Source of the DNA: Candidatus Adlerbacteria bacterium
Lineage (GTDB): Bacteria; Patescibacteriota; Minisyncoccia; Phycocordibacterales; SBAW01
Assembly (NCBI GenBank): GCA_029288895.1
Contig: JARIGK010000004.1
Location: 175,866-239,865, forward strand
DNA: 64,000 nucleotides
Direction of reading: 5' to 3'
In this document: positions 21,412 to 46,747 of the stretch, piece by piece
Numbering within the stretch: position 1 is the first letter of the stretch
Layout of the letters: every line of letters starts with the position of its first letter
Translations under genes and position numbers: made by a program
Notes under the pieces: generated by a model
What the model was told of the DNA's origin: nothing
What the model saw: the letters and a program-made list of their open reading frames with translations, nothing else
Databases searched by the model: none

Positions 21412-21436
21412 AGCCCTAATGGTATAGTTGGAGTAT

Positions 21437-23056
21437 ATGAGTATGTTGAGCAGGGTATTTGGCCGTGTCCGCGCGTGGGCATGGTACTCCAAAGTTGCTG
21501 CGGCAGTAGCGGTTGTTGCTGTTGTGGGCGTGGGCGTGCATGCACTGACGCGCACCAATGACGCTACTACTACAACGCCACAAGTGTCGCACGTGCGCGA
21601 AGCATCCGTTGCGAGCCTTTCGTCGCAGAGCGTGGGGCCATTGCCTGTCGTGGGCAACGTGACATCGCTCGATCATGCAACACTGCTTGCGCAAACGTCT
21701 GGTCCTGTGACGAGCCTTTCGAAATCGCTTGGTTCGTACGTCGCCGCGGGCGGCGTGATAGGCGAGCTTGAAAACAGCGCCCAGCGCGCAGCCGTACTCC
21801 AAGCACAAGGTGCGTACGAAGCAGCGCAAGCGTCATTTGCAAACACCAGCGGGACGTCGGCGCAAAACTCTGGCATCGGTGCAAATCAGGCAGTGCAAAA
21901 TGTGGCAAACACACAAGCAAGTGCAAACACTGCGATGCAAAGCCTCTACTCGGCGCTCGACGACGCGGTGCATACCAAAGCCGACCTTTTGTTTACTAAC
22001 CCGCGCACTAATGCAACGCTTTTGCTGACGACAACCGACAGCCAGCTTGCTATTACCTTGCAGAACGAACGTGTCGCACTTGAGCACACGCTTTCGAATG
22101 CAAACAGCAAAGCAAATGCATCAACGCGCGCGGACACTGACGCTGACATCACAACGATGGCCGCGTATGGGCAGGCGACGGTAACCTTCCTTAACCATTT
22201 GGTCGAGGCGGTAAACAAAGCGCTGCCTACAGAAACTGTCACAGCGGCGCAAATTTCCGGGTACCAAACATCCATTGCTGCGGCACGCACCGAAGTAGTG
22301 AGTGCGCTCTCGAGCCTTTCGTCGGCAAAAACAGCGTATGATGCCGCGGTGGCAAGCGCTGCAACGGCAAGCAACACTGCGGGCACTGGCACAGCAAACA
22401 GCATTAGCGCAGCCGGGGCGCAGGTGACGCAGGCACAAGGCGCACTTGATGCTGCACGCTCGGCGCTTGAAAAAACAATCATCCGCTCGCCGATTTCCGG
22501 CACCATTGTAAGTTTGCCCATTACGCGCGGCGGCTTTGTCACTGCGGGCTCGCAAGTGGCAGTCGTCTCAAACCCAGGCGCTTTGGAGGTTGATGCGTAT
22601 GTAACGCCAAGCGATGCGAAGACCATTGTCGTCGGTGGCGTGGCAACCATAGGGCAGGGCACCCGCGGCGTTATCGTTTCTATTGCACCAGCGCTCGACC
22701 CAACCATCGGCAAAATTTTGGTAAAGATTGGTATTCCGGGCAGCCAAGCAGCGCTCACCGATGGTGACACCGTCTCTGTCACACTCGCACGCTCGACGCC
22801 GGCACAGGTCAAACAACAAACAAAGACGCCAGAAGGTACGGTGCTTATTCCGATAGTTGCAGCAAAAATTACGCCTCAAGGCCCCGTCGTCTTCCAAGTG
22901 ACTGCGTCATCGACTTTGCACAGCATCCCTGTGACGCTCGGCACTATTTTGGGCGAACAAGTTACCATCACAAGCGGTCTTACCCCTGACATGAGTATCG
23001 TTACCGATGCGCGCGGGCTCTCCGATGGCGACACGGTCGTCGTCGACACTCAATAA
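21437..23056 (+). CDS. Efflux periplasmic adaptor (HlyD/membrane fusion protein family), long form
   Basis: N-terminal TM helix, very long Ala/Thr/Gln-rich helical region, C-terminal beta-barrel motifs (IRSPISGTIVSL, VVSNPGALEVDAYV); 3 nt upstream of the RND gene. Confidence 0.8.
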   Translation: MSMLSRVFGRVRAWAWYSKVAAAVAVVAVVGVGVHALTRTNDATTTTPQVSHVREASVASLSSQSVGPLPVVGNVTSLDHATLLAQTSGPVTSLSKSLGSYVAAGGVIGELENSAQRAAVLQAQGAYEAAQASFANTSGTSAQNSGIGANQAVQNVANTQASANTAMQSLYSALDDAVHTKADLLFTNPRTNATLLLTTTDSQLAITLQNERVALEHTLSNANSKANASTRADTDADITTMAAYGQATVTFLNHLVEAVNKALPTETVTAAQISGYQTSIAAARTEVVSALSSLSSAKTAYDAAVASAATASNTAGTGTANSISAAGAQVTQAQGALDAARSALEKTIIRSPISGTIVSLPITRGGFVTAGSQVAVVSNPGALEVDAYVTPSDAKTIVVGGVATIGQGTRGVIVSIAPALDPTIGKILVKIGIPGSQAALTDGDTVSVTLARSTPAQVKQQTKTPEGTVLIPIVAAKITPQGPVVFQVTASSTLHSIPVTLGTILGEQVTITSGLTPDMSIVTDARGLSDGDTVVVDTQ

Positions 23057-23059
23057 CCT

Positions 23060-26000
23060 ATGTTGTGGCTGTGGAATTTCTTCCTGGAGCGCAAACAATT
23101 TAGCTACGTCCTTATTGCGACGCTTGTTATTGCAGGGTTCTATGCGCTTTTGCAGATCCCAAAAGAAAATGCGCCGTCTATTGTCATCCCCAACGGCATC
23201 GTTACGGTTGCCTTGCCGGGCGCCTCGGCCGAAGATATCGAGCGCCTCGTCACGAACAAACTCGAAGATCAAATTTCTGGTCTCTCGAACCTCGACACCA
23301 TTTCATCAAACTCAAGCGATGGCGTTTCCGTACTAAACGTACAATTCAGCGCAAACGCCGACGTCAACCAATCGATCCAAGACCTGCGCGACGCAGTAGC
23401 CAAAGCGGTGCCTAACTTGCCGCAAGATGCCACGGCGCCGCAAGTCAGCAAGATCGATATCACCAATCAACCTATTCTTGTTGTTTCGATTTCGGGCGAC
23501 CTGCCATTGCCAGCATTTTCTGCCTTGGGCACATCAGTGTCGGATGACTTGAAGAGCATCCCTGGAGTTTCGGAAGTGGATGTTACTGGCGTGCCAGATA
23601 GAGAGGTGGATGTCATCGTCAGCAAAGAACAGCTCGAGCGATATGGCTTGCGCTTGGTTGATGTGATTGGCGCTATCTCGTCTGCAAACGCTGCGGCACC
23701 TGCAGGCAGCATTTCGATAAACGGCGTTAACTACACCGTGAACTTTAAAGGCGGCATCGACGACCCGTCCGAAATACAAAACATTGCGGTTGGCTCCAAA
23801 AATGGCGTGCCGATTTATGTGCGCGACATAGCAGTCGTCTCCGACGGCCTGGCACCTGCAAAAACATATTCGCGCCTCTCGCTTGGCGGCAAACCAAGCA
23901 ATCAAGCCATGACGCTTATGGTCTACAAGCAGTCGGGCGCGAGTGTGCAAGGTGTTGCCAACGCTGCAAAGAAAAAAGTCGAAGCGTTGAAAGGCACATC
24001 GCTCAAAGGCCTCGATGTGTTTATCTCGCCGTCGACAGACCAGGGCGTGCAGGTTTCAAAGCAGTTGGGCGACTTGGCCGAAACAGGGCTCGAAACTGTC
24101 GCACTCGTGCTCATTGTGCTCTTTATCACTATCGGTTGGCGCGAGTCTGTTGTGGCAGGGCTCGCTATCCCGATGTCCTTCCTTATCGCGTTTATCGGGC
24201 TCTACCTTACCGGCAATACGCTTAACTTTATTTCGCTCTTTGCACTTATTTTAGCCGTCGGCATTTTGGTCGACTCTGGCATCGTCGTGACGGAAGCCAT
24301 CCATGCACGCCGTCCATTATTTAAAGACTCGATGGATGCTGCACGCGCGGCACTCCACGACTACGCGTGGCCGCTTATCGCGGGCACCATGGCGACAGTG
24401 GCCGTGTTCGCACCGCTCTTCTTTATCTCGGGCATCGTTGGCAAATTTATCGCTGGTATTCCGTACACGCTTATCTTTGTGCTCATCGCATCGATCTTCG
24501 TGGCGCTTGGTATTGTGCCGCTCATTGCCGTGCTTTTTTCGTCGAGCCAAACGCAGAGCCGTTTGGAGGAGCTCCAAGAAATGTATACCGAAAAGACAAC
24601 GCATTGGTATAAAGAAAAATTGCGCATCATGCTCGAGAGTAAACGCGCACAGCGCCTCTTCTTGCGCGGGCTTGCGGCGCTCTTTGTGTTGTCGCTCGCG
24701 CTGCCATTTACGGGTTTGGTGCAAACAACATTCTTCCCGCAAGACGACCAAGATTTTGTCTACATAAACATCCAAAAACCAGAAGGCACGACGCTTGCAC
24801 AAACAGATTTGACTGTGCGCGAGGTGGAAGAGATCTTGTACAAAAACAGCGATATCTCGTCGTTTGAAACAACCGTTGGCCAAAGTTCTGGGCTTACGGG
24901 CTCGGGCTCGTCCGGCAGCAACCAAGCAAACATCACAGTAAACTTGCCGCTTGGCCACAAAAAGACAAGCACCAGCATTTCAAACGAATTAACACAGCAG
25001 CTTGGCGTTATCACCGATGCAGATATTCAAGTGCTCCAGGCAAACAATGGGCCATCGTCGGGCGCGCCGATTCAAATACAGTTTAAAGGCGAGAATTTAA
25101 ATGACTTGATCACCGCAGCACAAGCAGGGAAGCGATTGCTTGCAAGTATGCCGGATGTCAAAAATATCACTGACACGACGCAAAACAATGGCACTGCGTT
25201 TGACTTGAGCATTGACCGTGGGAAAGCAACGGCGCTTGGCCTCTCGACACAAATGGTGGCGCAAACATTGCGCGCCGCGATCCAGGGCGCCAAGGCCACA
25301 AGCATCACAGAGCCGCAAAAAGATATCGACGTTATCGTAAAGCTCAACCTAAACACCAACTACATCGACCCGTCCGACACGACGCGCACCACGATTGATG
25401 CAATTAAAAATCTTTCGATCCAAGGCAGCACGGGCCCTGTGCTCTTGGGCTCGGTGCTCACAGACAGCCTGGGGCAGAGCAACGCAGCAATTGCCCACAA
25501 AGACAAAGTACGTATTGAAACAGTATCGGCATACCCGAGCGACAACACAACGGCCAATGCCGTAGTCGGCGCGTTCCAAAAACGCCAAAGCGAACTGATT
25601 TTGCCCGAAGGCGTGACGGCTTCGTATGGCGGCGAAACACAAGACGTAAATAAATCATTTACAGAAATGTTTCTCGCGCTTATCGCGGGGCTCGTGCTTA
25701 TGTTTATGATCCTCATCATTTCATTTAACTCGATCCGCCACACGCTCCAACTGTTGCTTATCGTGCCGCTCTCGCTCATCGGCGTCTTGGATGGTTTGGC
25801 GCTCACGGGGCAGCCGGTGTCGTTTACCTCGCTCCTTGGCATCATTGCGCTCGGCGGCGTCATCATTAACCACGCCATTATATTGATGGACTCAATGATC
25901 CATCAGCTGCATGCGCACCCGGACAAGTCGCTCGTTGATATTGTCGTCGACTCATCTGCAACGCGCTTGCGCCCGATTGTGCTGACAACTATTACTACTG

Positions 26001-26161
26001 TTGTGGGTATGATCCCGCTCGCGCTGTCGAATGCTACATGGGGTCCGCTGGCGTACGCTGTGATGTTTGGCTTGACCTTCGCTATCTGTCTCACGCTTGT
26101 GCTCGTGCCAGTGCTCTTCTTCCGCTATCACACGCGCATGCGCGCAAAAGCAACGCACTAG
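23060..26161 (+). CDS. RND-family efflux transporter permease (AcrB-like)
   Basis: 1033 aa, 12-TM architecture with two large extracytoplasmic loops; AcrB-type motifs (SLFALILAVGILVDSGIVV...). Confidence 0.9.
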   Translation: MLWLWNFFLERKQFSYVLIATLVIAGFYALLQIPKENAPSIVIPNGIVTVALPGASAEDIERLVTNKLEDQISGLSNLDTISSNSSDGVSVLNVQFSANADVNQSIQDLRDAVAKAVPNLPQDATAPQVSKIDITNQPILVVSISGDLPLPAFSALGTSVSDDLKSIPGVSEVDVTGVPDREVDVIVSKEQLERYGLRLVDVIGAISSANAAAPAGSISINGVNYTVNFKGGIDDPSEIQNIAVGSKNGVPIYVRDIAVVSDGLAPAKTYSRLSLGGKPSNQAMTLMVYKQSGASVQGVANAAKKKVEALKGTSLKGLDVFISPSTDQGVQVSKQLGDLAETGLETVALVLIVLFITIGWRESVVAGLAIPMSFLIAFIGLYLTGNTLNFISLFALILAVGILVDSGIVVTEAIHARRPLFKDSMDAARAALHDYAWPLIAGTMATVAVFAPLFFISGIVGKFIAGIPYTLIFVLIASIFVALGIVPLIAVLFSSSQTQSRLEELQEMYTEKTTHWYKEKLRIMLESKRAQRLFLRGLAALFVLSLALPFTGLVQTTFFPQDDQDFVYINIQKPEGTTLAQTDLTVREVEEILYKNSDISSFETTVGQSSGLTGSGSSGSNQANITVNLPLGHKKTSTSISNELTQQLGVITDADIQVLQANNGPSSGAPIQIQFKGENLNDLITAAQAGKRLLASMPDVKNITDTTQNNGTAFDLSIDRGKATALGLSTQMVAQTLRAAIQGAKATSITEPQKDIDVIVKLNLNTNYIDPSDTTRTTIDAIKNLSIQGSTGPVLLGSVLTDSLGQSNAAIAHKDKVRIETVSAYPSDNTTANAVVGAFQKRQSELILPEGVTASYGGETQDVNKSFTEMFLALIAGLVLMFMILIISFNSIRHTLQLLLIVPLSLIGVLDGLALTGQPVSFTSLLGIIALGGVIINHAIILMDSMIHQLHAHPDKSLVDIVVDSSATRLRPIVLTTITTVVGMIPLALSNATWGPLAYAVMFGLTFAICLTLVLVPVLFFRYHTRMRAKATH

Positions 26162-26224: not shown

Positions 26225-26824
26225 ATGTACAAAATTCTCATAGGCGGATTGATTATTGTTGTTGCGTTCTGTACGCACCTGCAGTCCGCAAGCCCAAGCG
26301 ATGCTATCCCGCAGATTCCTGATGCGGGCACTGTAGTTTCTACGTCGAGCGCGCCGACATCGCACGAAGACGTCCATGTAACCCCGACCGTAGCGCATGT
26401 ACCTGTGCGTGTGCGCATACCCGCACTCAATCTAAATGATGCGGTGGTGCCAGTTGGGCTTACACAGGACGGCGCTATGGATGTGCCGCCGGGCAACACA
26501 AAGAATGTTGGCTGGTACGAGTACGGCACCGTGCCAGGCGACATAGGAAGTGCGGTGTTTGATGCACATGTGTTTGCTGCATTTTCGAAGCTCTACAAAT
26601 TAAAAGCAGGGGACGACATCTACGTCACGCTCATGGATGGACGCGAAGAGCATTTTACTGTTGAAGAGACAAACGTATACGCACTCGGTGATGTTCCTGC
26701 GGAAGCACTCTTTGCGCGTGCGGATACACAGAGGCTCAACTTGATTACATGCGAAGGCAAACTCACGCGCGACCGCTCGACCTACGACCATAGGCGCATT
26801 ATCTCTGCGACGCTCGTGCAATAA
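26225..26824 (+). CDS. Sortase-family transpeptidase
   Basis: N-terminal anchor, catalytic His context (AVFDAHVF), TLxTC active site (RLNLITCEG) and conserved Arg downstream. Confidence 0.7.
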   Translation: MYKILIGGLIIVVAFCTHLQSASPSDAIPQIPDAGTVVSTSSAPTSHEDVHVTPTVAHVPVRVRIPALNLNDAVVPVGLTQDGAMDVPPGNTKNVGWYEYGTVPGDIGSAVFDAHVFAAFSKLYKLKAGDDIYVTLMDGREEHFTVEETNVYALGDVPAEALFARADTQRLNLITCEGKLTRDRSTYDHRRIISATLVQ

Positions 26825-26828
26825 ACAA

Positions 26829-26856
26829 AGCCCCATAGAAGGGGCTCTGTTGTGTT
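26829..26856. terminator. Terminator hairpin between convergent genes
   Basis: AGCCCC-atagaa-GGGGCT followed by CTGTTGTGTT. Confidence 0.45.
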
Positions 26857-26879
26857 ACGAGAGTTTGGATCGGTTCCGT

Positions 26880-27227
26880 CTATGAGCGAAGTGCGATCTT
26901 GCGCTGGCGTGCTAGATATACTGCAGCGCCGCCCGCGATAAGTGCACTGCCGCCAAGTGTTGCCCATGCGCCAAGTGCATCGCCGCCCAACCCTGTGTTT
27001 GGCGTGCCTGGCGTTGTGCTCATGGTGCCACTCGTGCCTGAGGTGCCAGTAGTTCCGGTTGTGTTAGTAGTGCCCGTTGTTCCCGTTGTGTTTGTGGAAC
27101 CGGTTGTACCAGTCGTACCCGTTGTGCTGCTGCCAGTAGTCTGTGCAAACGCGACGCCGCTGCCCAAGAGCAACGTTAGTGCGACTGCGGCACTTCCTGC
27201 TTTAATCCCAAGTGTGCGTAGAGTCAT
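26880..27227 (-). CDS. Small secreted Thr/Gly-rich repetitive protein with a C-terminal PNTG sorting signal (sortase substrate)
   Basis: Signal peptide MTLRTLGIKAGSAAVALTLLLGSGVAFAQT; TTGTTG-type tandem repeats; C-terminus TPNTG + hydrophobic stretch + RQRK. Confidence 0.6.
   Translation of the reverse strand: MTLRTLGIKAGSAAVALTLLLGSGVAFAQTTGSSTTGTTGTTGSTNTTGTTGTTNTTGTTGTSGTSGTMSTTPGTPNTGLGGDALGAWATLGGSALIAGGAAVYLARQRKIALRS
27040..27160. repeat. Short in-frame tandem repeat tract (9-12-bp GT/AC-rich units) inside the 26880..27227 gene
   Basis: Visible reiteration ...ccagtagttccggttgtgttagtagtgcccgttgttcccgttgtgtttgtggaaccggttgtaccagtcgtacccgttgtg... Confidence 0.6.
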
Positions 27228-39260: not shown

Positions 39261-40076
39261 ATGACTATCAAAAAGATTTCCTACATTCTCGCAGTGCTTG
39301 GGTTTGGAATGACATTGGCGCCGGCATTTGCAATGGCACAGACGGCAGGCGTTGGTGTCTCGGCTAACGCAACTGTTACAACGCCTGCAGCAAAGGTAGA
39401 AATGAGCGCAACTGCCATGACAAATGCGAAGGCGCGTGGCGATAAAGAACTCGACCGCCGCGTACAAGCACTCACCGATGCAAACATCCGCGTTCAGGCG
39501 ATGCAGAAGGTAACGCCAACCTTTAAAGACAACTTGGCAACGGCGCTCCAGACACAGATCACTGCATTTAATGCACTCAAGGCAAAGATCGATGCAGATA
39601 CTGATGCTGCAACATTGAAGGCAGATATACAGTCGATCACTCAGTCATACCGCGTATACGCGCTCGTGCTCCCGCAGGTACACATTGCAGCTGCGGCAGA
39701 CCGCGCAGTCGCTATCTCTTCGATGATGCAGACGCTTGGCACTAAGTTGGCAGCACGCATCCAGGCAGCAGGGCAGGCAGGTGCGGATGTCACTGCGCTC
39801 AATGCAACCTTGTCTGACTTGGGCACCAAGATCTCGGATGCAAATACGCAGGCACAGGCTGCTGTTACCGTAAGCGCAGCACTTGCCCCAGACAATGGCG
39901 ACAAAGACAAAATGGCATCAAATAATGCAGCACTTAAAACGGCACGCACTGATTTGACCACTGCAGGTGCTGACTTGAAGGCAGCTCGCAAAGACATCGA
40001 CACGCTCGTCAAAGGGCTGAAGAAGGTAGAAGCAAGTGCCTCGGCTACGAGCACTGCGTCGACTACCACGCACTAA
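39261..40076 (+). CDS. Secreted Ala-rich coiled-coil protein
   Basis: Signal peptide MTIKKISYILAVLGFGMTLAPAFAMA, heptad-like Ala/Thr/Gln/Asp/Lys-rich sequence. Confidence 0.5.
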   Translation: MTIKKISYILAVLGFGMTLAPAFAMAQTAGVGVSANATVTTPAAKVEMSATAMTNAKARGDKELDRRVQALTDANIRVQAMQKVTPTFKDNLATALQTQITAFNALKAKIDADTDAATLKADIQSITQSYRVYALVLPQVHIAAAADRAVAISSMMQTLGTKLAARIQAAGQAGADVTALNATLSDLGTKISDANTQAQAAVTVSAALAPDNGDKDKMASNNAALKTARTDLTTAGADLKAARKDIDTLVKGLKKVEASASATSTASTTTH

Positions 40077-40083
40077 CTACTCC

Positions 40084-40803
40084 ATGCCGCTTGTTATTGG
40101 CATCGCTGCAGCTCTCTCAACGCTTGTTGGGGGAGCTGTTGCGTTACGATTGCGCGACCGCTTGCACTTGATATTGGGGTTTAGCGCGGGGGCAGTTATT
40201 GCTGTTGCATTCTTTGACCTATTGCCTGAAGCGCTCACGTTGGGCGGCAGAGCGCACGAGCTTTCGACTGTCACGTCATTCGTGGCGCTTGGCTTCTTAC
40301 TCTACTTGTTGCTCGACCGGTTGCTTGTATTGCACAGCCACGGCCATGCGGACGATGCCGAGCATGATCATTCGCGCGGCCACGTGCGTGCAGGCTCACT
40401 TTCGCTCCACAGTTTTCTCGACGGTGTAGGTATTGGTTTGGCATTCCATGTGTCGCCCACGGTTGGCTTCCTTGTTGCGGCAGCGGTCTTGGCGCACGAT
40501 TTCTCGGACGGCATCAATACAGTTAATGTCTTGGTACGCCACGGCGGCACAAAAGCACAGGCAATGCGATGGCTTGTTGTCGACGCACTCGCGCCCATTG
40601 CGGGCATCATACTGACGATGTTTATAAATGTGGGCGAAGGTACGCTTGGCCTGCTTCTTGCGCTCTTCTCTGGCTTCTTCCTCTACATTGGCGCGTCGGA
40701 CTTGATTCCCGAAAGCCATCACGTACACCCAACCTTCTGGACTACCTTTATGACCCTCTTGGGCGCACTCGTTCTCTTTGTCGCAATCTCAATCGCAGGC
40801 TAA
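40084..40803 (+). CDS. ZIP-family metal transporter (ZupT-like)
   Basis: His-rich loop HSHGHADDAEHDHSRGH, HSFLDGVGIG and LAHDFSDG metal-binding TM motifs. Confidence 0.75.
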   Translation: MPLVIGIAAALSTLVGGAVALRLRDRLHLILGFSAGAVIAVAFFDLLPEALTLGGRAHELSTVTSFVALGFLLYLLLDRLLVLHSHGHADDAEHDHSRGHVRAGSLSLHSFLDGVGIGLAFHVSPTVGFLVAAAVLAHDFSDGINTVNVLVRHGGTKAQAMRWLVVDALAPIAGIILTMFINVGEGTLGLLLALFSGFFLYIGASDLIPESHHVHPTFWTTFMTLLGALVLFVAISIAG

Positions 40804-42290
40804 GCCTCGACCATAATAGGTTCGTCCAATTTCTTTTCGGGGACGCGGAGGAAGAGTGCTGCAAAGGCGCCTACGGCAAGAAGGGAAGCGGCGGTGATAA
40901 ATATCACGGCGTACGCGTCTATCTGCGCTTTTAATTCGATAAGTGTAATAAACTGTTGCGTCGCAGCTTTGGTGTGTACGTTGAGCAGGCTGTTTTGAGC
41001 GATCTTGAGCACGTTGTTGTTTGTGGTGCTCTGGAGCAATGTGCCAAAGAGCGCGATGCCGAATGCGCCCGCGATATTTCTGCCAAGCGCCAAGATAGAT
41101 GATGCGACGCCGATTTCTTCCTGCGGCACAATCGCAGCAATCGCGTTTGTGCGCTGCGCCATACCAAAGCCCAACCCAAAGGCCATTACGAACATGGGGA
41201 TCATAATGTCGATGGCCGTGGAACGTACATCAATAAATGAGAAAAGGTAGAGGCCAAACGCCGCAACAATCGTTGATGCAAAAATCACATAGCGCGGCTG
41301 CACGCGGCCTGTGAGTGCGCCGCCGATGGGCGCCGCAAACATCATTGCAAATGCCATCGGCATAAAAAGGTAGCCCGACTCCGTGGCATCGTATGCAAGG
41401 AATGTTTGTGCAAATACGGGGATAAGGAAGATGCTGCCCATAAGGCCCATAAAGACGAGGAAGTTGTTGCCAAGCGTGTTGATGAAGGTCCAGTTTTTAA
41501 AGAACTTCAAATCCACGATTGGCTCCGGATGTCGTTGTTCGATATATACAAAGATGGTTGTGGCAACAACAACGGTGATATAGCAGAGGATGCTGTTAAG
41601 CGAGAGCCAGCCCCAGTCGGTACCTTGGTCGAGCACAAAGACGAGGCTCGATAGCGCAATGCCCAATACCGACGCGCCCCACCAGTCGAAGCCTTTTGGC
41701 TTCTTTTCGTTTTTTGATTCCTCGATATAGATGATTGCCAAAATCATGCCGATGACGCCCACCGGGATGTTGATGAGGAAGACCGAGCGCCAGCCAAAGC
41801 TGTCGATAAGCGGGCCGCCTACAAGCGGGCCAAACACTGCTGCAGCGGCAAACGACGACGACCAAATGCCGAGTGCCTGCGCGCGCTCTTTACCCTCGCG
41901 GAAGGTAAACGCGATGATTGCCATGGCGGTGGGGTAGTCGGCGGAACCTGCAATTGCTTGGATGACGCGGAAGACAATCATGGAACCCAAGTTCCACGAA
42001 AGGCCTGCGAGCGCCGAGCCCACGATAAACATCGCAAAGCCTGTGAGATAGACGCGTTTGCGCCCTATGGTGTCGCCGAGCTTGCCCCAAATCGGCACAA
42101 AGACTGCGTTAGCCAAGATATAGGCAGTTGCGATCCAGCCTGCGGCCGAGACCGTGATCGAAAAGTCATTGATAATTTTGGGCAGCGCCAAGTTAACGAT
42201 GGTCTGGTCGAGCCGACCAAGAAACGTACCCATTATCACCGTCAGCAATATCATCCAACGGTACGGATTTTGCGTCGTACCTTCTGGCAT
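40800..42290 (-). CDS. MFS transporter, DHA2 (EmrB/QacA) family, 14 TM
   Basis: 496 aa; motif A-like GRLDQTIVNLALPKI, G-x-LGDTIGRKR. Confidence 0.85.
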   Translation of the reverse strand: MPEGTTQNPYRWMILLTVIMGTFLGRLDQTIVNLALPKIINDFSITVSAAGWIATAYILANAVFVPIWGKLGDTIGRKRVYLTGFAMFIVGSALAGLSWNLGSMIVFRVIQAIAGSADYPTAMAIIAFTFREGKERAQALGIWSSSFAAAAVFGPLVGGPLIDSFGWRSVFLINIPVGVIGMILAIIYIEESKNEKKPKGFDWWGASVLGIALSSLVFVLDQGTDWGWLSLNSILCYITVVVATTIFVYIEQRHPEPIVDLKFFKNWTFINTLGNNFLVFMGLMGSIFLIPVFAQTFLAYDATESGYLFMPMAFAMMFAAPIGGALTGRVQPRYVIFASTIVAAFGLYLFSFIDVRSTAIDIMIPMFVMAFGLGFGMAQRTNAIAAIVPQEEIGVASSILALGRNIAGAFGIALFGTLLQSTTNNNVLKIAQNSLLNVHTKAATQQFITLIELKAQIDAYAVIFITAASLLAVGAFAALFLRVPEKKLDEPIMVEA

Positions 42291-42293
42291 AGA

Positions 42294-42941
42294 TTAGTTT
42301 TTGTAGACCCAGATCTTTGCGGACATACCGTTTTTGAGTTCGGGATGTGCCGCGGTGTCGAAGCGAACTTTGACGTCGAAGTCTTGTTCTTGGCGTTTGT
42401 CGGAGATGTTAAAGACAACATCGCCCGACTCTGCGCTTGGGGCGACCTCGTCAACAATGCCGGTATATTTTTGCCCGCCGAATGCATCGACAGTAAACTC
42501 TGCGCGTTGGCCAGCATGGATATCGACGAGGCCTTTGTCTTCTGCAATTTGGCCTACGACGCGCAACTGTGTCGGGTCGATTACTGCGACGACTGTTTCG
42601 TTTTGGCCAATTGATTTGCCGATGTTGTTATTGGTGGTGATCACAAGCCCGCCGTTTTGCGATTTGATAAGTTCGGTGCCGACCTGTGCTACTACAGTGT
42701 TTGGCGCAATAGTGTCGCCTTCGTGCACATAGACTGCTTTTAATATGCCGCTTGCGCCAGGGCCCAAGTCGACAACAGGCGCTTCGATCTGCGATTTGTC
42801 GATGTAGACAGTCTTCGATGCCGCGGCAAGGTATGCAGCGCCTGCGATGCCGCCGCCTATGACGATGACAAGGAACGCGGCAAGGACAAGCACGCGGCGA
42901 TCAAGACCTTTCTTTTCTTCTGTTGGTTGTGTAGGTGCCAT
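42294..42941 (-). CDS. HlyD/EmrA-like membrane fusion protein, short form
   Basis: N-terminal TM, biotinyl-lipoyl-like hairpin (ILKAVYVHEGDTIAPNTVVAQV) and beta-barrel C-terminus; 215 aa; 3 nt upstream of the MFS gene. Confidence 0.7.
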   Translation of the reverse strand: MAPTQPTEEKKGLDRRVLVLAAFLVIVIGGGIAGAAYLAAASKTVYIDKSQIEAPVVDLGPGASGILKAVYVHEGDTIAPNTVVAQVGTELIKSQNGGLVITTNNNIGKSIGQNETVVAVIDPTQLRVVGQIAEDKGLVDIHAGQRAEFTVDAFGGQKYTGIVDEVAPSAESGDVVFNISDKRQEQDFDVKVRFDTAAHPELKNGMSAKIWVYKN

Positions 42942-42946
42942 AAAAA

Positions 42947-44521
42947 TTATTTTGAATTCACGAGATACTGGTCGCCCGCAGAAAGACCCGAGGTAACTTC
43001 AATGTTGGTATCGTCAGCGATGCCTGTTTGGATTTGTTTCTCGATTGGGGTTTTGCCGCCCGGCACGAGCACGAATGTGTTTGCGCCATTTTGCAATACT
43101 GCGCTTTTCTGTATCACCACAACGTTCTGTTTCTGTGCAGCTAAGATCGTCGCATTCGCACCCATGCCTGTTGAGATGCTTTCGTCATTGTTTGTAAACT
43201 GGAGTACGACTTTGTACCCAGACATGCCGCTCTCTGTCGTAGGGGAGCGGTCGATAGACGCAACCGTTGCGGGGAAGATCTTGCCGCTGCCGTAGGCATC
43301 GAGCGTCACCTGCGCGCTGTCTCCCGTCTGTAACTTTGCAACATCAACTTCGCTCACGTAGAGCTTCACCTGCAAGGCGCTTTGTGGTGTAAGCGACACG
43401 GCAACGGTATTTGGTGCGACTGTTTGGCCCGCCTTTACATTGACGCTGGCGACAGTGCCGGAAAACGGCGCGACGATAATATTATTTGCAATTTGTGCTT
43501 CTATACTTGCGACCTGCGCCTTTGCTGCATCAACTTGCGCTGTCTGTGCTGCGATGTCTTGGCTCGTTGCGCCAGCTTGGATCTTGTTGAGTGCATCTTG
43601 TGCCGACTGCACTGCCAATTTGCCCGATGCAATTTGCTGCTGCGCGCCTTGCAGAGAAAGTATGAGTGAACTTGCGGTGCTGTTGAGTGTGCTGACTGAC
43701 GTTTGTGCTGTTGCAATCTGTGCGGCAGTGAAATTGCTTGACGGTACGGCATTTGCAAGTGCTTGGAGAAGCGTGCTCGTGTATGTGCGCACGTTTGTCA
43801 GTTGTACGATAGAGGCAGAGAGCGCTGCATCAATTGTGTGGGCGTCAGATGCGGTGTTGAGCGAATCTATCGTCGAACTCCAGGATGGAAGCTGCACATT
43901 CAAGGTGGTGCGAGCATTCGAAGCATCCACCGCAGCCTGGCTGTTTGATGTTTGGAAGGTAACGGTAGGCTGCGGCATCGTTGGTTGGTTAAAGAGTGCG
44001 TCTGTATTTTGGCGCACGCCATTGTAGGTTTTGTTGTATGCGTCTGTCAGCGTTGCGGGGATGTTGGCGTATACATTGGCAAGCGACTGCTGTGCTTGTG
44101 CGACTGCAGTTTGGCCTGATTGGACATCGGTGGCGCGGGCGCCTGCGTTTAAGGAGTCGAGCTTTGCCTGTGCTGCTTCGACATTAGCCTCTGCCATTGC
44201 TTCTTGCGCATGCAAACTTGCGGTGTCGAGTGCTGCGAGTACCTGGCCTTGGTACACCTGTGCACCAACGGATGCATGGACTGAAACGACACGGCCGCCG
44301 CCTACAAATGCGAGATTAGGGTTTTGTGAAGGTTCGACAGTGCCTGAGCCCGTGACAGTTTCGTTAATTGAACCCATCTCAACCGTAGCAACAGACGACT
44401 GGGGTGAGCGAGTTGAGACGAAGTAATACACACCGCTACCCAAGGCGATGACAACAACCGCTCCAAGCGCACTCATAACAAGCGGGTGGGCGAGAACTTC
44501 TTTTTCAAAAAATGATTTCAT
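42947..44521 (-). CDS. HlyD-family periplasmic adaptor, long coiled-coil form
   Basis: 524 aa; N-terminal TM, lipoyl-like (GTVEPSQNPNLAFVGGGRVVSVHASVGAQVYQGQVLAAL), ~300-aa Ala/Gln-rich coiled coil, C-terminal barrel. Confidence 0.7.
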   Translation of the reverse strand: MKSFFEKEVLAHPLVMSALGAVVVIALGSGVYYFVSTRSPQSSVATVEMGSINETVTGSGTVEPSQNPNLAFVGGGRVVSVHASVGAQVYQGQVLAALDTASLHAQEAMAEANVEAAQAKLDSLNAGARATDVQSGQTAVAQAQQSLANVYANIPATLTDAYNKTYNGVRQNTDALFNQPTMPQPTVTFQTSNSQAAVDASNARTTLNVQLPSWSSTIDSLNTASDAHTIDAALSASIVQLTNVRTYTSTLLQALANAVPSSNFTAAQIATAQTSVSTLNSTASSLILSLQGAQQQIASGKLAVQSAQDALNKIQAGATSQDIAAQTAQVDAAKAQVASIEAQIANNIIVAPFSGTVASVNVKAGQTVAPNTVAVSLTPQSALQVKLYVSEVDVAKLQTGDSAQVTLDAYGSGKIFPATVASIDRSPTTESGMSGYKVVLQFTNNDESISTGMGANATILAAQKQNVVVIQKSAVLQNGANTFVLVPGGKTPIEKQIQTGIADDTNIEVTSGLSAGDQYLVNSK

Positions 44522-44543
44522 ACGTTGTTTGTAAAATATTGCG

Positions 44544-44957
44544 CTAATTGGTTTCTAATATCTTTTTCAATATTCGCTGCATATCGCTATGGTCTTTATC
44601 CGAGAGGCTCTGTAGCATACCGTGGAGGATTTTCTTGCGCTTATTCATAATTGTTGCAAGCTCCGTCGTCGCCTTCTTCGTTACTTTGATATGTACTTGC
44701 CTGCGGTCGTCCTTATTTGTCTCACGCACAAGATAGCCTCCGTCTACAAGTTGGTTTACCAGCGCCGTGGCCGATGGCGCGCGGATGTGGAGGTGTATGG
44801 CTACAGCGCTCATAAGAGGGGAGCCTTGTTCTTGGACAAAGCGCAGCACTTCAGCCTGGGTAAATGACACGCCATCTTCGACGGCGACCAGTTTCTTTTT
44901 CATTTTTCGTCCAGCGTCCAGAAACAGCTCGACGGTTGTTTCGCTTTTGTTCGACAT
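44544..44957 (-). CDS. MarR-family transcriptional regulator
   Basis: wHTH QAEVLRFVQEQGSPLMSAVAIHLHIRAPSATALVNQLVDGGYLVRETNKDDRR. Confidence 0.8.
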   Translation of the reverse strand: MSNKSETTVELFLDAGRKMKKKLVAVEDGVSFTQAEVLRFVQEQGSPLMSAVAIHLHIRAPSATALVNQLVDGGYLVRETNKDDRRQVHIKVTKKATTELATIMNKRKKILHGMLQSLSDKDHSDMQRILKKILETN

Positions 44958-44970
44958 GCAAATAGTTAGA

Positions 44971-44985
44971 TATACTAAGTATATA
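44971..44985. promoter_or_regulatory. Palindrome ATATACTaAGTATAT immediately upstream of the marR start; candidate MarR operator
   Basis: Perfect 7-bp arms 13 bp upstream of the marR start codon. Confidence 0.3.
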
Positions 44986-45159
44986 GGGATAGAGATGGAG
45001 TGTCAATGAAGCCTTCGTATACTGGTCTCGTGCCAGGGCCTTGTAATTTCTAAATAAAGTGGTAGTCTGGCTGCCAGATTCGCCCGCCTGTGTGGCGGGT
45101 TCATCGGGAACTCATCCCATTCAAGCCAGTATTAGTATCTAATTAACCCTTTATTTAAT

Positions 45160-46074
45160 ATGACATTCCGCCCACTCGTAGTTTCATTGATTGCCGCTGC
45201 TGCGGTAGCTATGCCGTTTGTTGCGTCAGCACAGACTGCGCCGTATTCGCAACTTATGATTACAACCCACGTGGCGCCTGGCACGCCAGCTCCCCAGGTG
45301 GCGCCGATTGTCACCATCCAGGCGACTATCCCGCAAATTTCGAATGTTGCGAATACAAGCTCGTCGCAGGCAAGCTATCCTGCAAACTTTAACGGCGAAG
45401 TGCGCACGGTAAACTTTGTTCCGGGCAGCTACGCTGTGTGGGCCTCTGGCGCTCCGGGGTACTACTTTACGTACTCGCAGGATTGCTCGGGCTTTACTCC
45501 TGCAAATGGCGGCAATGGTATCCGCGGCTGCACTATTACACTTTCCAACACGCCGCCTCCGCCTGCGTACAATTGCATTACCTGGTTTGGTAGCAATTCG
45601 TGCATGGCGCCCGTTGTCCCGTACTCGGGGCCTCTTGGCCAATCGCAGCTTACCTGCGCACCGACCTACCAGACTATTTCTGCAGGCCGCCCGGCAACCT
45701 TTACTGCTGAGGGTGGTAACCAGGGTGGGTACAACTGGACCACGACCGACCGCACCTCGCTTAACGTCGGCACGTCGTTTACAACCGTGCTCCAGACCAC
45801 GGGCGTACAAACTGTCATCGTTTCCAATGGCGTACAAAATGCGACCTGCACCGTAAACGTTGTCGCGGGTGCAGCAGGCACAGCTATTACTTACGCTGGC
45901 TCGCAGACTGGCGCACCATCTGTTACCTCAAACTACATCCCAGCATACTTGCCGAACACAGGCTTTGGCCCGCTTGATAGCGCATCGCTCGCATTTGCGC
46001 TCGTCCTCCTCTTGGCTGTTGGTTTCGTCACTGCCCCATATGTCAGAAAAGCCCTTACTGCTGCCCTCGGCTAA
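45160..46074 (+). CDS. Cell-surface protein with a C-terminal LPNTG sorting signal
   Basis: Signal peptide, Thr/Pro-rich region, C-terminus YLPNTGFGPL + hydrophobic stretch + RK tail; sortase gene starts 2 nt downstream. Confidence 0.65.
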   Translation: MTFRPLVVSLIAAAAVAMPFVASAQTAPYSQLMITTHVAPGTPAPQVAPIVTIQATIPQISNVANTSSSQASYPANFNGEVRTVNFVPGSYAVWASGAPGYYFTYSQDCSGFTPANGGNGIRGCTITLSNTPPPPAYNCITWFGSNSCMAPVVPYSGPLGQSQLTCAPTYQTISAGRPATFTAEGGNQGGYNWTTTDRTSLNVGTSFTTVLQTTGVQTVIVSNGVQNATCTVNVVAGAAGTAITYAGSQTGAPSVTSNYIPAYLPNTGFGPLDSASLAFALVLLLAVGFVTAPYVRKALTAALG

Positions 46075-46075
46075 G

Positions 46076-46747
46076 ATGGCAACGCTTGTTCGTGAGTCGG
46101 AAGTCCGCGCATGGGCACGGATGGTTCTTATCGCTGTCGGGTTTGCTGTCATTGCGCTTGGTGTGTTTGCCGCACTGAACAAACTCTCGTCGTATGTCAG
46201 CGTTGATGCAACGCAAACAGCATTTGCGCCGCTTGGTACGCTCACGACAAAAAATATAAATATCGCGGCACTGCCCGCATATGTCTCGACGACGACGCCC
46301 ATTACGCCGGTGCGTTTGAAGATCCCGTCGATTGGCGTGGATGCGCACGTAGAGCGTGTTGGCAAAAAAGCCGATGGCTCGATGGCAACTCCAACGTCCT
46401 TTGAAGATGCTGGCTGGTACGAATTGGGTGCGCACCCAGGGCAGGCGGGCAACGCAGTCATTGCGGGCCACGTCAACAATGCGCTCACCAAGGCAGGAGT
46501 ATTTGAACATTTGAACGCCGTAAAAGTAGGCGACTATGTGACTGTTACAGACGCTTCGGGAAAGACGCTTGTGTACGTTGTTTCAGAAACGCATCAGTAC
46601 GCAACAAACGAAGCACCTACAGCATCTATCTTTGCGGTTACGGGCCCATCACAGCTCGTGCTCATCACTTGCGACGGGGCCTGGGATGACGCATCGCACT
46701 CCTACGACAAGCGCCTTGTCGTCTTTGCCCGCCTCACGTCTAAATAA
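46076..46747 (+). CDS. Sortase-family transpeptidase
   Basis: N-terminal TM, catalytic His (NAVIAGH), TLxTC (LVLITCDG), conserved Arg (FARL). Confidence 0.75.
   Translation: MATLVRESEVRAWARMVLIAVGFAVIALGVFAALNKLSSYVSVDATQTAFAPLGTLTTKNINIAALPAYVSTTTPITPVRLKIPSIGVDAHVERVGKKADGSMATPTSFEDAGWYELGAHPGQAGNAVIAGHVNNALTKAGVFEHLNAVKVGDYVTVTDASGKTLVYVVSETHQYATNEAPTASIFAVTGPSQLVLITCDGAWDDASHSYDKRLVVFARLTSK

What the first reader, a model, noticed from the sequence alone, without database searches (positions are those of the whole stretch)
40800..44985. MarR-controlled MFS (DHA2) efflux operon with two different membrane-fusion proteins; similarly long adaptor on the RND pump
On the minus strand: marR, a 524-aa HlyD-type adaptor with a ~300-aa Ala/Gln coiled coil, a 215-aa EmrA-like short adaptor and a 14-TM EmrB-like MFS pump. 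The hlyD-RND pair at 21437-26161 also has an unusually long (542-aa) Ala/Thr-rich adaptor. No TolC-like outer-membrane factor is present in the window. In a sortase-bearing (monoderm-like) cell, very long coiled-coil adaptors could span a thick wall instead of docking an outer-membrane channel. A perfect palindrome ATATACTaAGTATAT sits 13 bp upstream of marR as a candidate operator.
Basis: partly seen in the sequence, partly recalled or inferred. Interest (0 to 1): 0.5.

Follow-up and report, generated by a model that had tools for sequence, protein, structure and literature searches.

The report
MarR-regulated efflux pump with two adaptors
This is a real, conserved four-gene drug-efflux operon (repressor, a long and a short membrane-anchored adaptor, and a proton-driven pump) in a tiny single-membrane "candidate phyla radiation" bacterium. 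It is a lineage-specific variant of a module also found in ordinary Gram-positive-type bacteria rather than a new kind of system.

Summary
On the minus strand lie marR (44957..44544), a 524-aa adaptor (PAP), a 215-aa PAP and a DHA2 MFS pump, separated by 22, 5 and 3 nt.

The source is a Paceibacteria/Adlerbacteria-type CPR genome. All 18 related loci with a long-PAP homologue keep the long PAP–short PAP–MFS order, and 16 also have marR in front.

- **Long PAP.** AlphaFold (pLDDT 93) shows a 246-residue helical domain. It is a long hairpin plus an inserted short hairpin and a β tip, not a plain coiled coil. It has no RLS motif for docking an outer-membrane channel.
- **Short PAP.** It has no hairpin. 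Its closest structural matches are EmrA and BesA.
- **Length.** The helical domain is invariant within the clade, so it is typical there. It is about twice as long as in most non-CPR counterparts.
- **Wider distribution.** The same module (MarR or TetR, hairpin PAP, short PAP hit by Pfam BSH_YhbJ, MFS) occurs outside CPR, including in a sporulating Firmicute.
- **No TolC.** No TolC/OEP gene is in the window or beside three related PAP–RND pairs.
- **Palindrome.** The conserved candidate operator is TTAG-N5-CTAACTATTAG at 44959..44978, next to the −10 box. It is absent in the one locus that lost marR.

Verdict: a new variant of a known kind, of modest interest.

The parts
44978..45006 (-). Sigma-70-type promoter: TTGACA (45006..45001), 17-nt spacer, TATACT (44983..44978)
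   Evidence: 11 of 12 matches to consensus. Both hexamers keep a fixed register with the downstream motif in the 16 aligned upstream regions (consensus TtGAc ... TaTATA).
44959..44982 (-). Conserved candidate MarR operator. It comprises an imperfect 8-5-8 inverted repeat ATAcTTAG-N5-CTAACTAT (44962..44982) and the near-invariant CTAACTATT(t)G (44959..44969). It overlaps the -10 box and the expected transcription start.
   Evidence: The exact pattern TTAG-N5-CTAACTAT is unique in the window (44962..44978). In 14 of 18 loci it occurs at a single site, always just upstream of marR; in 4 of these the site is palindromic and matches on both strands. L003 carries a variant. The motif is absent in L006, which lacks marR.
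44970..44984 (.).
   Evidence: Read directly from the sequence. Its left arm is the -10 box plus the left half-site. Its right arm falls mostly in the 5-nt spacer, which differs in every other locus. There are 6 such palindromes in the window.
44544..44957 (-). marR: a 137-aa MarR-family winged-helix repressor and first gene of the operon
   Evidence: Pfam MarR_2 E=1e-10 and MarR E=8.6e-9. Weak NCBIfam similarity to MprA/EmrR and SlyA, below the cut-offs. Present upstream of the long PAP in 16 of 18 loci.
42947..44521 (-). Long periplasmic adaptor (PAP/MFP), 524 aa. Domains: N-terminal TM helix, lipoyl domain split by a 246-aa helical domain, β-barrel, and membrane-proximal domain.
42294..42941 (-). 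Short hairpin-less adaptor, 215 aa. Domains: TM helix, uninterrupted lipoyl domain, and a β-barrel with a conserved disordered loop (about residues 168-186).
40800..42290 (-). DHA2-family MFS drug/H+ antiporter, 496 aa
   Evidence: TIGR00711 310 bits against a cut-off of 230. Best solved relatives are EfpA, EmrB and QacA, E=1e-44 to 1e-49.
21428..23056 (+). Paralogous long adaptor of the RND pump. 542 aa from TTG; 537 aa in the identical public protein, implying a start at about 21443.
   Evidence: TIGR01730 112.9 bits. 28% identical to the 524-aa PAP across the helical domain, including the tip motif. Homologues are mostly 513-561 aa.
23060..26161 (+). AcrB-type RND permease, 1033 aa
   Evidence: Pfam ACR_tran E=2.2e-179 over the full length. 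The PAP-RND pair stands alone, without an OEP gene, in L026-L028.

Best explanation
This is an autoregulated efflux operon of emrRAB type that works without an outer-membrane channel.

**Regulation (inferred).** MarR binds the conserved TTAG-N5-CTAACTATTAG site, which abuts and overlaps the -10 box. It represses its own promoter and the three tightly coupled downstream genes until a ligand releases it.

**Pump (shown by homology).** The pump is a DHA2 proton antiporter.

**Two adaptors (inferred).** Two membrane-anchored adaptors assemble on it.
- The short, hairpin-less adaptor resembles EmrA and BesA in fold, and Pfam BSH_YhbJ hits its relatives. It supplies the membrane-proximal lipoyl/β-barrel ring that contacts the pump's extracytoplasmic loops, as the EmrA barrel does on EmrB.
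- The long adaptor, which this lineage also uses with its RND pump, supplies a helical stalk or duct. The stalk would be roughly 115-120 Å long if straight, with a thickened four-helix distal end. It would carry substrates away from the membrane, into or through the wall and surface layer, rather than docking TolC.

**Shown:** gene identities, operon conservation, domain architectures, absence of the RLS motif, absence of a linked OMF gene, and conservation of the DNA motif.

**Inferred:** MarR binding, hetero-assembly of the two adaptors, the duct function, and the substrates.
For: **Gene identities:**

**Operon coupling:** gaps of 22, 5 and 3 nt. The long PAP-short PAP-MFS order is kept in 18 of 18 Paceibacteria loci, at protein identities down to 40%, and marR precedes it in 16.

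**Same module outside CPR:**
- L024: MarR-PAP395-short221-MFS556, next to SpoIIID, SpoIID and SpoIIT.
- L022: MarR-short219-PAP407-MFS524.
- L023: PAP472-short244-MFS542.
- L019: TetR-PAP337-short222-MFS505.

**Short PAP:** its closest folds are EmrA and BesA. It lacks a hairpin and carries a conserved barrel loop aligned to the EmrA barrel region. The EmrA barrel loop is what grips EmrB (PMC13139468).

**Long PAP:**
- Confident model with a 246-aa helical domain.
- No RLS tip motif, and helical length invariant in 116 homologues.
- The membrane-proximal domain is missing in about 60% of orthologues. This fits an MFS partner with no large periplasmic domain, since EmrA also lacks this domain (PMC13139468).
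- The RND adaptor is a paralogue with the same helical domain.

**No OMF:** none in the window or next to three related PAP-RND pairs. CPR cells lack an outer membrane by cryo-TEM (PMC7906910).

**Operator:** one site per locus (palindromic in four, so matched on both strands), at a fixed distance from the -10 box but a variable distance from the ATG. It is lost together with marR in L006.
Against: - No complex was modelled or observed, so co-assembly of the two adaptors rests on gene linkage only.
The stalk length is therefore an estimate from helix lengths (76-81 residues at 1.5 Å each), and breaks at residues 127-129 and 316-319 could be kinks.
- A four-helix distal end may be incompatible with a closed six-hairpin tube.
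- The rest of the genome could not be searched for TolC.
- MarR binding is untested.
- The B. subtilis relative YhcA is annotated as a c-di-AMP exporter (PMC10855248), so 'drug efflux' may not be the physiological role.
Confidence: 0.55

Rival explanations
1. This is a classical tripartite pump. The long adaptor docks an outer-membrane factor encoded elsewhere in the genome, and the organism is effectively diderm.
For: The long PAP has the full four-domain architecture of Gram-negative PAPs, and its best structural hits are MacA, MexC and AcrA. The RND pump is a full-length AcrB type. Only 64 kb of a contig of at least 298 kb was available.
Against: - No OEP hit in any large ORF of the window or beside three related PAP-RND pairs.
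- No RLS tip motif.
- The tip is a β element plus a four-helix bundle, not a helix-turn-helix.
- There are two sortases and LPNTG-type substrates.
- CPR cells show no outer membrane (PMC7906910, PMC12102498).
- The same module occurs in a sporulating Firmicute.
Confidence: 0.05
2. The adaptors do not form an exit duct. In a single-membrane cell they act as pump activators or assembly chaperones, or as a local cage that prevents back-diffusion. The long helical domain would be a spacer or wall-contact element. The two adaptors may form separate complexes rather than one heteromer.
For: - The role of PAPs with large hairpins in Gram-positives is an acknowledged open question (PMC4446572).
- The distal four-helix bundle and conserved β tip (D174, L176, F177, P185, F189) look like a binding module.
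- L020/L021 have only the short PAP, and L025 has two short PAPs without an adjacent MFS gene, so the components are separable.
Against: - The long and short PAPs are strictly co-linked with the MFS gene in 18 of 18 loci, with gaps of 3-5 nt in the window.
- Gram-positive PAPs YknX and Spr0693 do form MacA-like hexameric tubes (PMC8277102).
Confidence: 0.25
3. The reader's perfect palindrome ATATACTTAGTATAT (44970..44984) is itself the MarR operator.
For: It is perfect, overlaps the -10 box, and shares its left arm (TACTTAG) with the conserved site.
Against: - Its right arm lies mostly in the 5-nt spacer, which differs in all 15 other loci.
- The invariant CTAACTATTAG lies mostly outside it.
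- Perfect 7-1-7 palindromes occur 6 times in the window, about the number I estimate by chance.
Confidence: 0.1
4. The conserved CTAACTATTAG acts at the RNA level, as a 5'-terminal hairpin of a very short leader affecting stability or translation, rather than as a protein-binding DNA site.
For: It lies downstream of the -10 box, so it is probably transcribed. CTAA-CTA-TTAG is self-complementary. In 4 loci it is extended by 3-4 further complementary bases that differ between loci (TCT/AGA, TAGG/CCTA, TTAC/GTAA, AAC/GTT).
Against: - The sequence itself, loop included, is invariant, which a hairpin does not require.
- Most loci have no stem extension, and the window copy breaks the stem (TTTG).
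- The motif keeps a fixed distance to the -10 box and a variable distance to the ATG.
- It is lost together with marR in L006.
Confidence: 0.1

Closest known systems
E. coli emrRAB (MprA/EmrR repressor, EmrA adaptor, EmrB DHA2 pump) working with TolC
   Same: - A MarR-family repressor is the first gene of the operon, followed by adaptor(s) and a DHA2 pump (EmrB E=3e-47).
- The short PAP's barrel is structurally closest to EmrA.
- EmrA lacks a membrane-proximal domain, as do the short PAP and about 60% of the long-PAP orthologues.
   Different: - Two adaptors instead of one.
- The EmrA-like one has no hairpin.
- There is no TolC and no RLS tip.
- Neither PAP reaches the EmrA family cut-off (TIGR00998: 65 and 25 bits against 390.8).
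B. subtilis yhbI (MarR)-yhbJ (putative efflux component)-yhcA (MFS) operon
   Same: - MarR, then a small adaptor-like protein, then a DHA2-type MFS pump, in a monoderm (PMC2788229, PMC10855248).
- Pfam's BSH_YhbJ family hits relatives of the short PAP.
   Different: No long hairpin adaptor is reported in that operon. YhcA is annotated as a c-di-AMP exporter.
P. aeruginosa TriABC-OpmH (two different adaptors on one pump)
   Same: Two distinct PAP genes next to one transporter gene (PMC8277102).
   Different: In TriABC the transporter is an RND pump and an OMF (OpmH) is required (PMC8277102). Here the transporter is an MFS pump, one PAP lacks the hairpin, and there is no OMF.
Borrelia BesA (hairpin-less PAP, PDB 4KKS)
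   Different: BesA works with an RND pump and the OMF BesC in a diderm, and it has a membrane-proximal domain. From memory it is a lipoprotein. The short PAP is TM-anchored, lacks that domain and pairs with an MFS pump.
Gram-positive MacA-like adaptors YknX (Bacillus) and Spr0693 (S. pneumoniae)
   Same: These are PAPs that function without an outer membrane and form hexameric tubes (PMC8277102). Spr0693 is matched by both PAP profiles.
   Different: Their partners are MacB-type ABC transporters, with a single adaptor and an ordinary hairpin. The CPR long PAP has roughly twice the helical residues and an inserted second hairpin.

Membership tests
Periplasmic adaptor / membrane fusion protein (TC 8.A.1): long PAP | Family HMM above the curated cut-off (TIGR01730 RND_mfp) | tested here: met
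   148.1 bits against 94.9. The 542-aa paralogue scores 112.9 bits.
Periplasmic adaptor / membrane fusion protein: long PAP | Membrane anchor, lipoyl domain split by an α-helical hairpin, and β-barrel (with or without a membrane-proximal domain) | tested here: met
Periplasmic adaptor / membrane fusion protein: long PAP | RLS (R-x3-L-x3-S) motif at a helix-turn-helix hairpin tip, for docking an OMF | tested here: not met
   No R...[LIVM]...[ST] match in the window protein. The tip is a conserved β element followed by a second hairpin.
Tripartite efflux assembly | A TolC/OEP-family outer-membrane factor | tested here: inconclusive
   None among all ORFs of at least 380 aa in the window or near three related PAP-RND pairs.
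EmrA/EmrK family (TIGR00998) | Score above the curated cut-off of 390.8 bits | tested here: not met
   Long PAP 65.1 bits, short PAP 25.2 bits.
Hairpin-less PAPs (BesA-like / YhbJ-like): short PAP | Lipoyl domain not interrupted by an α-hairpin, followed by a β-barrel | tested here: met
YhbJ-like (Pfam PF25997 BSH_YhbJ): short PAP | Match to the BSH_YhbJ model | tested here: inconclusive
   Precomputed hits exist on a close homologue (P0128) and on distant homologues. My own Pfam scan of the window protein listed only HlyD_D23 and HlyD_3. The identical public protein carries PF25990 only.
DHA2 (14-TMS) MFS drug/H+ antiporters | TIGR00711 above the cut-off, and full-length similarity to EmrB, QacA and EfpA | tested here: met
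   310 bits against 230.2. PDB hits at E=1e-44 to 1e-49 over residues ~10-423. A crude hydropathy scan gave 13 peaks, two pairs of them overlapping, so it is not decisive.
MarR family repressor with palindromic operator at its own promoter | Winged-helix MarR domain | tested here: met
   MarR_2 42 bits against 27, and MarR 35.6 bits against 24.6.
MarR family repressor with palindromic operator at its own promoter | Binding to a (pseudo)palindrome overlapping the promoter | not testable with these tools
   A conserved inverted repeat overlapping the -10 box is present and co-occurs with marR. Binding itself needs EMSA or footprinting.
TriABC-type two-adaptor pumps | Two hairpin-bearing PAPs on an RND transporter, with an OMF | tested here: not met
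   The transporter is an MFS pump, one PAP lacks the hairpin, and no OMF was found.

The most novel reading that the evidence does not exclude
In outer-membrane-less CPR bacteria, the enlarged and length-invariant helical domain of the long adaptor may form a self-sufficient exit duct or wall-spanning stalk. Its conserved β-tip and four-helix end would engage the peptidoglycan or surface layer instead of TolC. On MFS pumps it would need the hairpin-less short adaptor as a base ring. That would make a heteromeric two-adaptor, OMF-independent, trans-envelope efflux machine, also shared in simpler form by Firmicutes.
Probability: 0.2. Interest if true: 0.65.

Novelty: new variant of a known kind. 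Interest (0 to 1): 0.35.

Why it matters
What periplasmic adaptors with large helical domains do in bacteria that have no outer membrane is an acknowledged open question (PMC4446572). This locus contributes three things.

1. It shows a widely conserved, compact module (repressor, hairpin adaptor, hairpin-less adaptor, DHA2 pump) present in both CPR bacteria and Firmicutes. I found no paper describing it.
2. Its CPR form has a helical domain about twice as long as in most non-CPR counterparts, and strictly invariant in length.
3. It provides a clear candidate operator.

The module offers a defined system for asking how adaptors work without TolC. It does not reveal a new class of machinery.

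Tried and rejected
- **Exact-protein lookup** of the 524-aa PAP to fetch the rest of the source contig: nothing on record. The genome could not be scanned for TolC.
- **afdb50 fold search:** library not available.
- **Cluster-member lookup** to obtain taxon names for distant short-PAP relatives: no names or accessions were returned. Gene context was used instead.
- **Helical domain alone** against the PDB and Pfam: no significant hit (best E=0.28 and 0.015). It has no recognisable relative by sequence.
- **RLS motif search:** none found.
- **Functional link between the operon and the neighbouring sortase plus LPNTG protein:** rejected as unproven. Other neighbours (ZIP, HhH-GPD, a 271-aa secreted protein) are equally syntenic in close relatives. 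The pair is absent next to the operon in the more distant loci L012, L013, L015 and L016.
- **Literature searches** for Patescibacteria with TolC or efflux: only generic annotations.
- **Internal promoter-like hit** at 44050..44021: the number of hits in the region is at the chance level (3 found, 3.5 expected).
- **Crude hydropathy TM count** for the MFS pump: uninformative.


Full report
**1. What is there**

Four ORFs lie head to tail on the minus strand:
- marR, 44957..44544, 137 aa
- a 524-aa adaptor, 44521..42947
- a 215-aa adaptor, 42941..42294
- a 496-aa MFS protein, 42290..40800

The gaps between them are 22, 5 and 3 nt. The family assignments are solid:
- MarR_2 and MarR score above the Pfam cut-offs.
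- The 524-aa protein passes TIGR01730 'efflux RND transporter periplasmic adaptor' (148 bits against 94.9).
- The pump passes TIGR00711 'DHA2 family efflux MFS transporter' (310 bits against 230). Its best solved relatives are EfpA, EmrB and QacA.
- The 215-aa protein matches HlyD_D23 and HlyD_3.

The second pair at 21428..26161 is a 542-aa adaptor (537 aa in the identical public protein) and a full-length AcrB-type RND permease.

**2. Whose genome it is**

Homologues of both adaptors come from Patescibacteria, Paceibacterota, Minisyncoccia and Candidatus Adlerbacteria or Kaiserbacteria MAGs. The window carries two sortases and proteins with LPNTG-type sorting signals. Cryo-TEM of groundwater CPR cells shows a surface layer and no outer membrane (PMC7906910). 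[quoted passage not shown]

**3. Conservation of the operon**

A scan of one genome per species returned 18 loci. In all 18 the long adaptor, short adaptor and MFS pump keep the same order and strand. Protein identities to the window are 40-57%, 54-72% and 48-76% respectively. marR precedes them in 16 loci. It is absent in L006, partly cut off in L011, and beyond the contig end in L014.

The divergent LPNTG protein plus sortase pair and other neighbours are syntenic only among the closer relatives. The functional unit is therefore the four genes.

**4. The long adaptor**

AlphaFold2, run with 116 homologues, gives mean pLDDT 93.2. The domain layout is:
- TM helix: 13-36
- β strands (N-terminal barrel strands and lipoyl half): 42-98
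- helices: 101-126 and 130-176
- a small β element: 177-193
- helices: 194-219 and 227-256
- helices: 266-315 and 320-346
- second lipoyl half and β-barrel: 348-458
- membrane-proximal domain: 459-522

The helical domain is thus 246 residues, not about 300, and is not a plain coiled coil. It is a long hairpin with arms of 76 and 81 residues. An inserted short hairpin should pack on the distal half to give a four-helix bundle capped by the β element.

At 1.5 Å per residue the arms would reach about 115-120 Å if straight. I could not obtain the coordinates, so this is an estimate.

By sequence, the helical domain matches nothing in the PDB or Pfam. It has no RLS-type docking motif. Across 116 homologues it is essentially gap-free (mean gap fraction 0.01), with a conserved tip (D174, L176, F177, P185, F189, R204, W214). 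By contrast, the membrane-proximal domain is absent from about 60% of orthologues, which fall into two length classes (446-473 and 503-537 aa).

The RND pump's adaptor is a paralogue with the same helical domain and tip (28% identity). Its homologues are mostly 513-561 aa.

The adaptors are therefore typical for the clade. Compared with non-CPR counterparts from the same kind of operon, however, the helical domain is about double in length. It has 247 and 234 residues, against 114, 128 and 135, with one counterpart at 198.

**5. The short adaptor**

AlphaFold (pLDDT 81.7) shows a TM helix (15-43), an uninterrupted lipoyl domain, and a β-barrel with a disordered but sequence-conserved loop at about 168-186.

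Profile comparison shows that its barrel is homologous to the long adaptor's barrel but carries an extra loop of about 11 residues. In EmrAB-TolC, a conserved loop of the EmrA barrel grips the periplasmic helix bundle of EmrB, and EmrA lacks a membrane-proximal domain (PMC13139468). The pump here has an extracytoplasmic segment of about 40 residues before its last TM helix, beyond the region alignable to solved DHA2 pumps.

This is the basis for proposing that the short adaptor is the pump-proximal ring. That step is inference.

**6. The module is not specific to CPR**

A profile search of 1.8 billion representative proteins found 6,628 relatives of the short adaptor (307 at E≤1e-10). The gene contexts of distant members are as follows.

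| Locus | Gene order | Context or note |
|---|---|---|
| L024 | MarR – PAP 395 aa – short PAP 221 aa – MFS 556 aa | next to SpoIIID, SpoIID and SpoIIT, so a sporulating Firmicute |
| L022 | MarR – short 219 – PAP 407 – MFS 524 | |
| L023 | PAP 472 – short 244 – MFS 542 | |
| L019 | TetR – PAP 337 – short 222 – MFS 505 | |
| L020/L021 | MarR – MFS – short PAP only | one adaptor |
| L025 | two short PAPs (255 and 229 aa) | no adjacent MFS gene |

The precomputed Pfam hits on these short proteins include a family named BSH_YhbJ. This links them to the B. subtilis yhbI (MarR)-yhbJ-yhcA operon, which is induced by benzoate, acid and diterpenes. Its MFS pump is annotated as a c-di-AMP exporter (PMC2788229, PMC10855248).

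The long PAPs of these non-CPR loci have lipoprotein signal peptides, whereas the CPR ones have an uncleaved TM helix.

**7. No outer-membrane factor**

None of the window's ORFs of at least 380 aa hits OEP. In three other Paceibacteria genomes the PAP-RND pair is a two-gene unit with unrelated neighbours and no OEP gene. I could not scan the rest of this genome.

**8. Promoter and operator**

A near-consensus promoter, TTGACA-17-TATACT, lies at 45006..44978. However, perfect 7-1-7 palindromes occur six times in the window.

Aligning the upstream regions of 16 operons gives the consensus TtGAc-N17-TaTATA-n-TTAG-N5-CTAACTATTAG. The 5-nt spacer is variable. The exact pattern TTAG-N5-CTAACTAT is unique in the window (44962..44978). 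In 14 of 18 loci it occurs at a single site, always just upstream of marR; in 4 of these the site is palindromic and matches on both strands.

The conserved inverted repeat is ATAsTTAG-N5-CTAACTAT, which matches 7 of 8 in the window.

The motif keeps a fixed distance from the -10 box but a variable distance from the start codon. It is missing in L006, the one complete locus without marR. Both facts fit a repressor operator that occludes the -10 box and transcription start, as in autoregulated MarR operons such as emrRAB. Binding itself is untested.

A minority alternative is a 5'-leader hairpin. It is suggested by complementary flanks of 3-4 bases that differ between loci, seen in four loci.

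**9. Comparison and verdict**

In organisation the locus works like emrRAB, but neither adaptor meets the EmrA family cut-off. It also has an extra, hairpin-less adaptor and no TolC partner.

It shares the 'two adaptors, one pump' idea with TriABC, but with a different transporter class and envelope. Its short adaptor resembles BesA and EmrA in fold, and its relatives are hit by Pfam BSH_YhbJ.

That adaptors with very large hairpins exist in Gram-positives, and are hard to rationalise as OMF bridges, is already stated in the literature (PMC4446572).

What I did not find described, in six full-text searches none of which targeted it directly, is:
- the conserved two-adaptor DHA2 module across CPR and Firmicutes;
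- the CPR-specific, length-invariant, doubled helical domain with a four-helix/β tip;
- the conserved operator.

I rate it a new variant of a known kind, with interest 0.35.

Noticed in passing
window 45160..46747 (+): A 304-aa secreted protein with a C-terminal sorting signal (YLPNTGFGP, a hydrophobic stretch and an RK tail) has no Pfam hit. A sortase follows it directly (ORF 45860..46747; the real start is probably near 46076). The pair is divergent from marR. It is conserved next to the operon in 11-12 of 18 loci but not in the most distant ones.
   Followed up: partly
window 26225..27227: A second sortase (26225..26824) lies directly downstream of the RND gene; the same is seen in L026. 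Convergent with it is a 115-aa Thr/Gly-rich protein (26880..27227, minus strand) ending in TPNTGLGG, a TM segment and RQRK. It is a probable sortase substrate.
   Followed up: partly
window 39261..40076 (+): A 271-aa secreted, Ala-rich protein that looks helical from its sequence has no Pfam family. It is conserved (50-65% identity) in 9 related loci downstream of the operon region.
   Followed up: partly
L006 3183..3321: This locus has lost marR. Its upstream region keeps a promoter-like sequence but lacks the TTAG-N5-CTAACTAT motif, so regulator and site were lost together.
   Followed up: yes
L012, L013, L016, L018 upstream of marR: The invariant CTAACTATTAG is flanked by 3-4 further complementary bases that differ between loci (TCT/AGA, TAGG/CCTA, TTAC/GTAA, AAC/GTT). 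This is a covariation-like pattern. It could indicate an RNA leader hairpin or an extended second palindrome.
   Followed up: partly
L019, L022, L023, L024 (long PAP genes): The non-CPR counterparts of the long adaptor start with lipoprotein signal peptides (Cys lipobox). Both CPR adaptors use an uncleaved N-terminal TM helix instead.
   Followed up: partly
one search hits P0331, P0333, P0340, P0345, P0348, P0375, P0379: Proteins of 450-705 aa match the short-adaptor profile in 2-3 separate stretches. They may be tandem or fused hairpin-less adaptor modules.
   Followed up: no
window 40800..40803: The MFS gene (minus strand) and a ZIP-family metal transporter gene (40036..40803, plus strand) converge and overlap by 4 nt. 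This leaves no room for an intergenic terminator.
   Followed up: no
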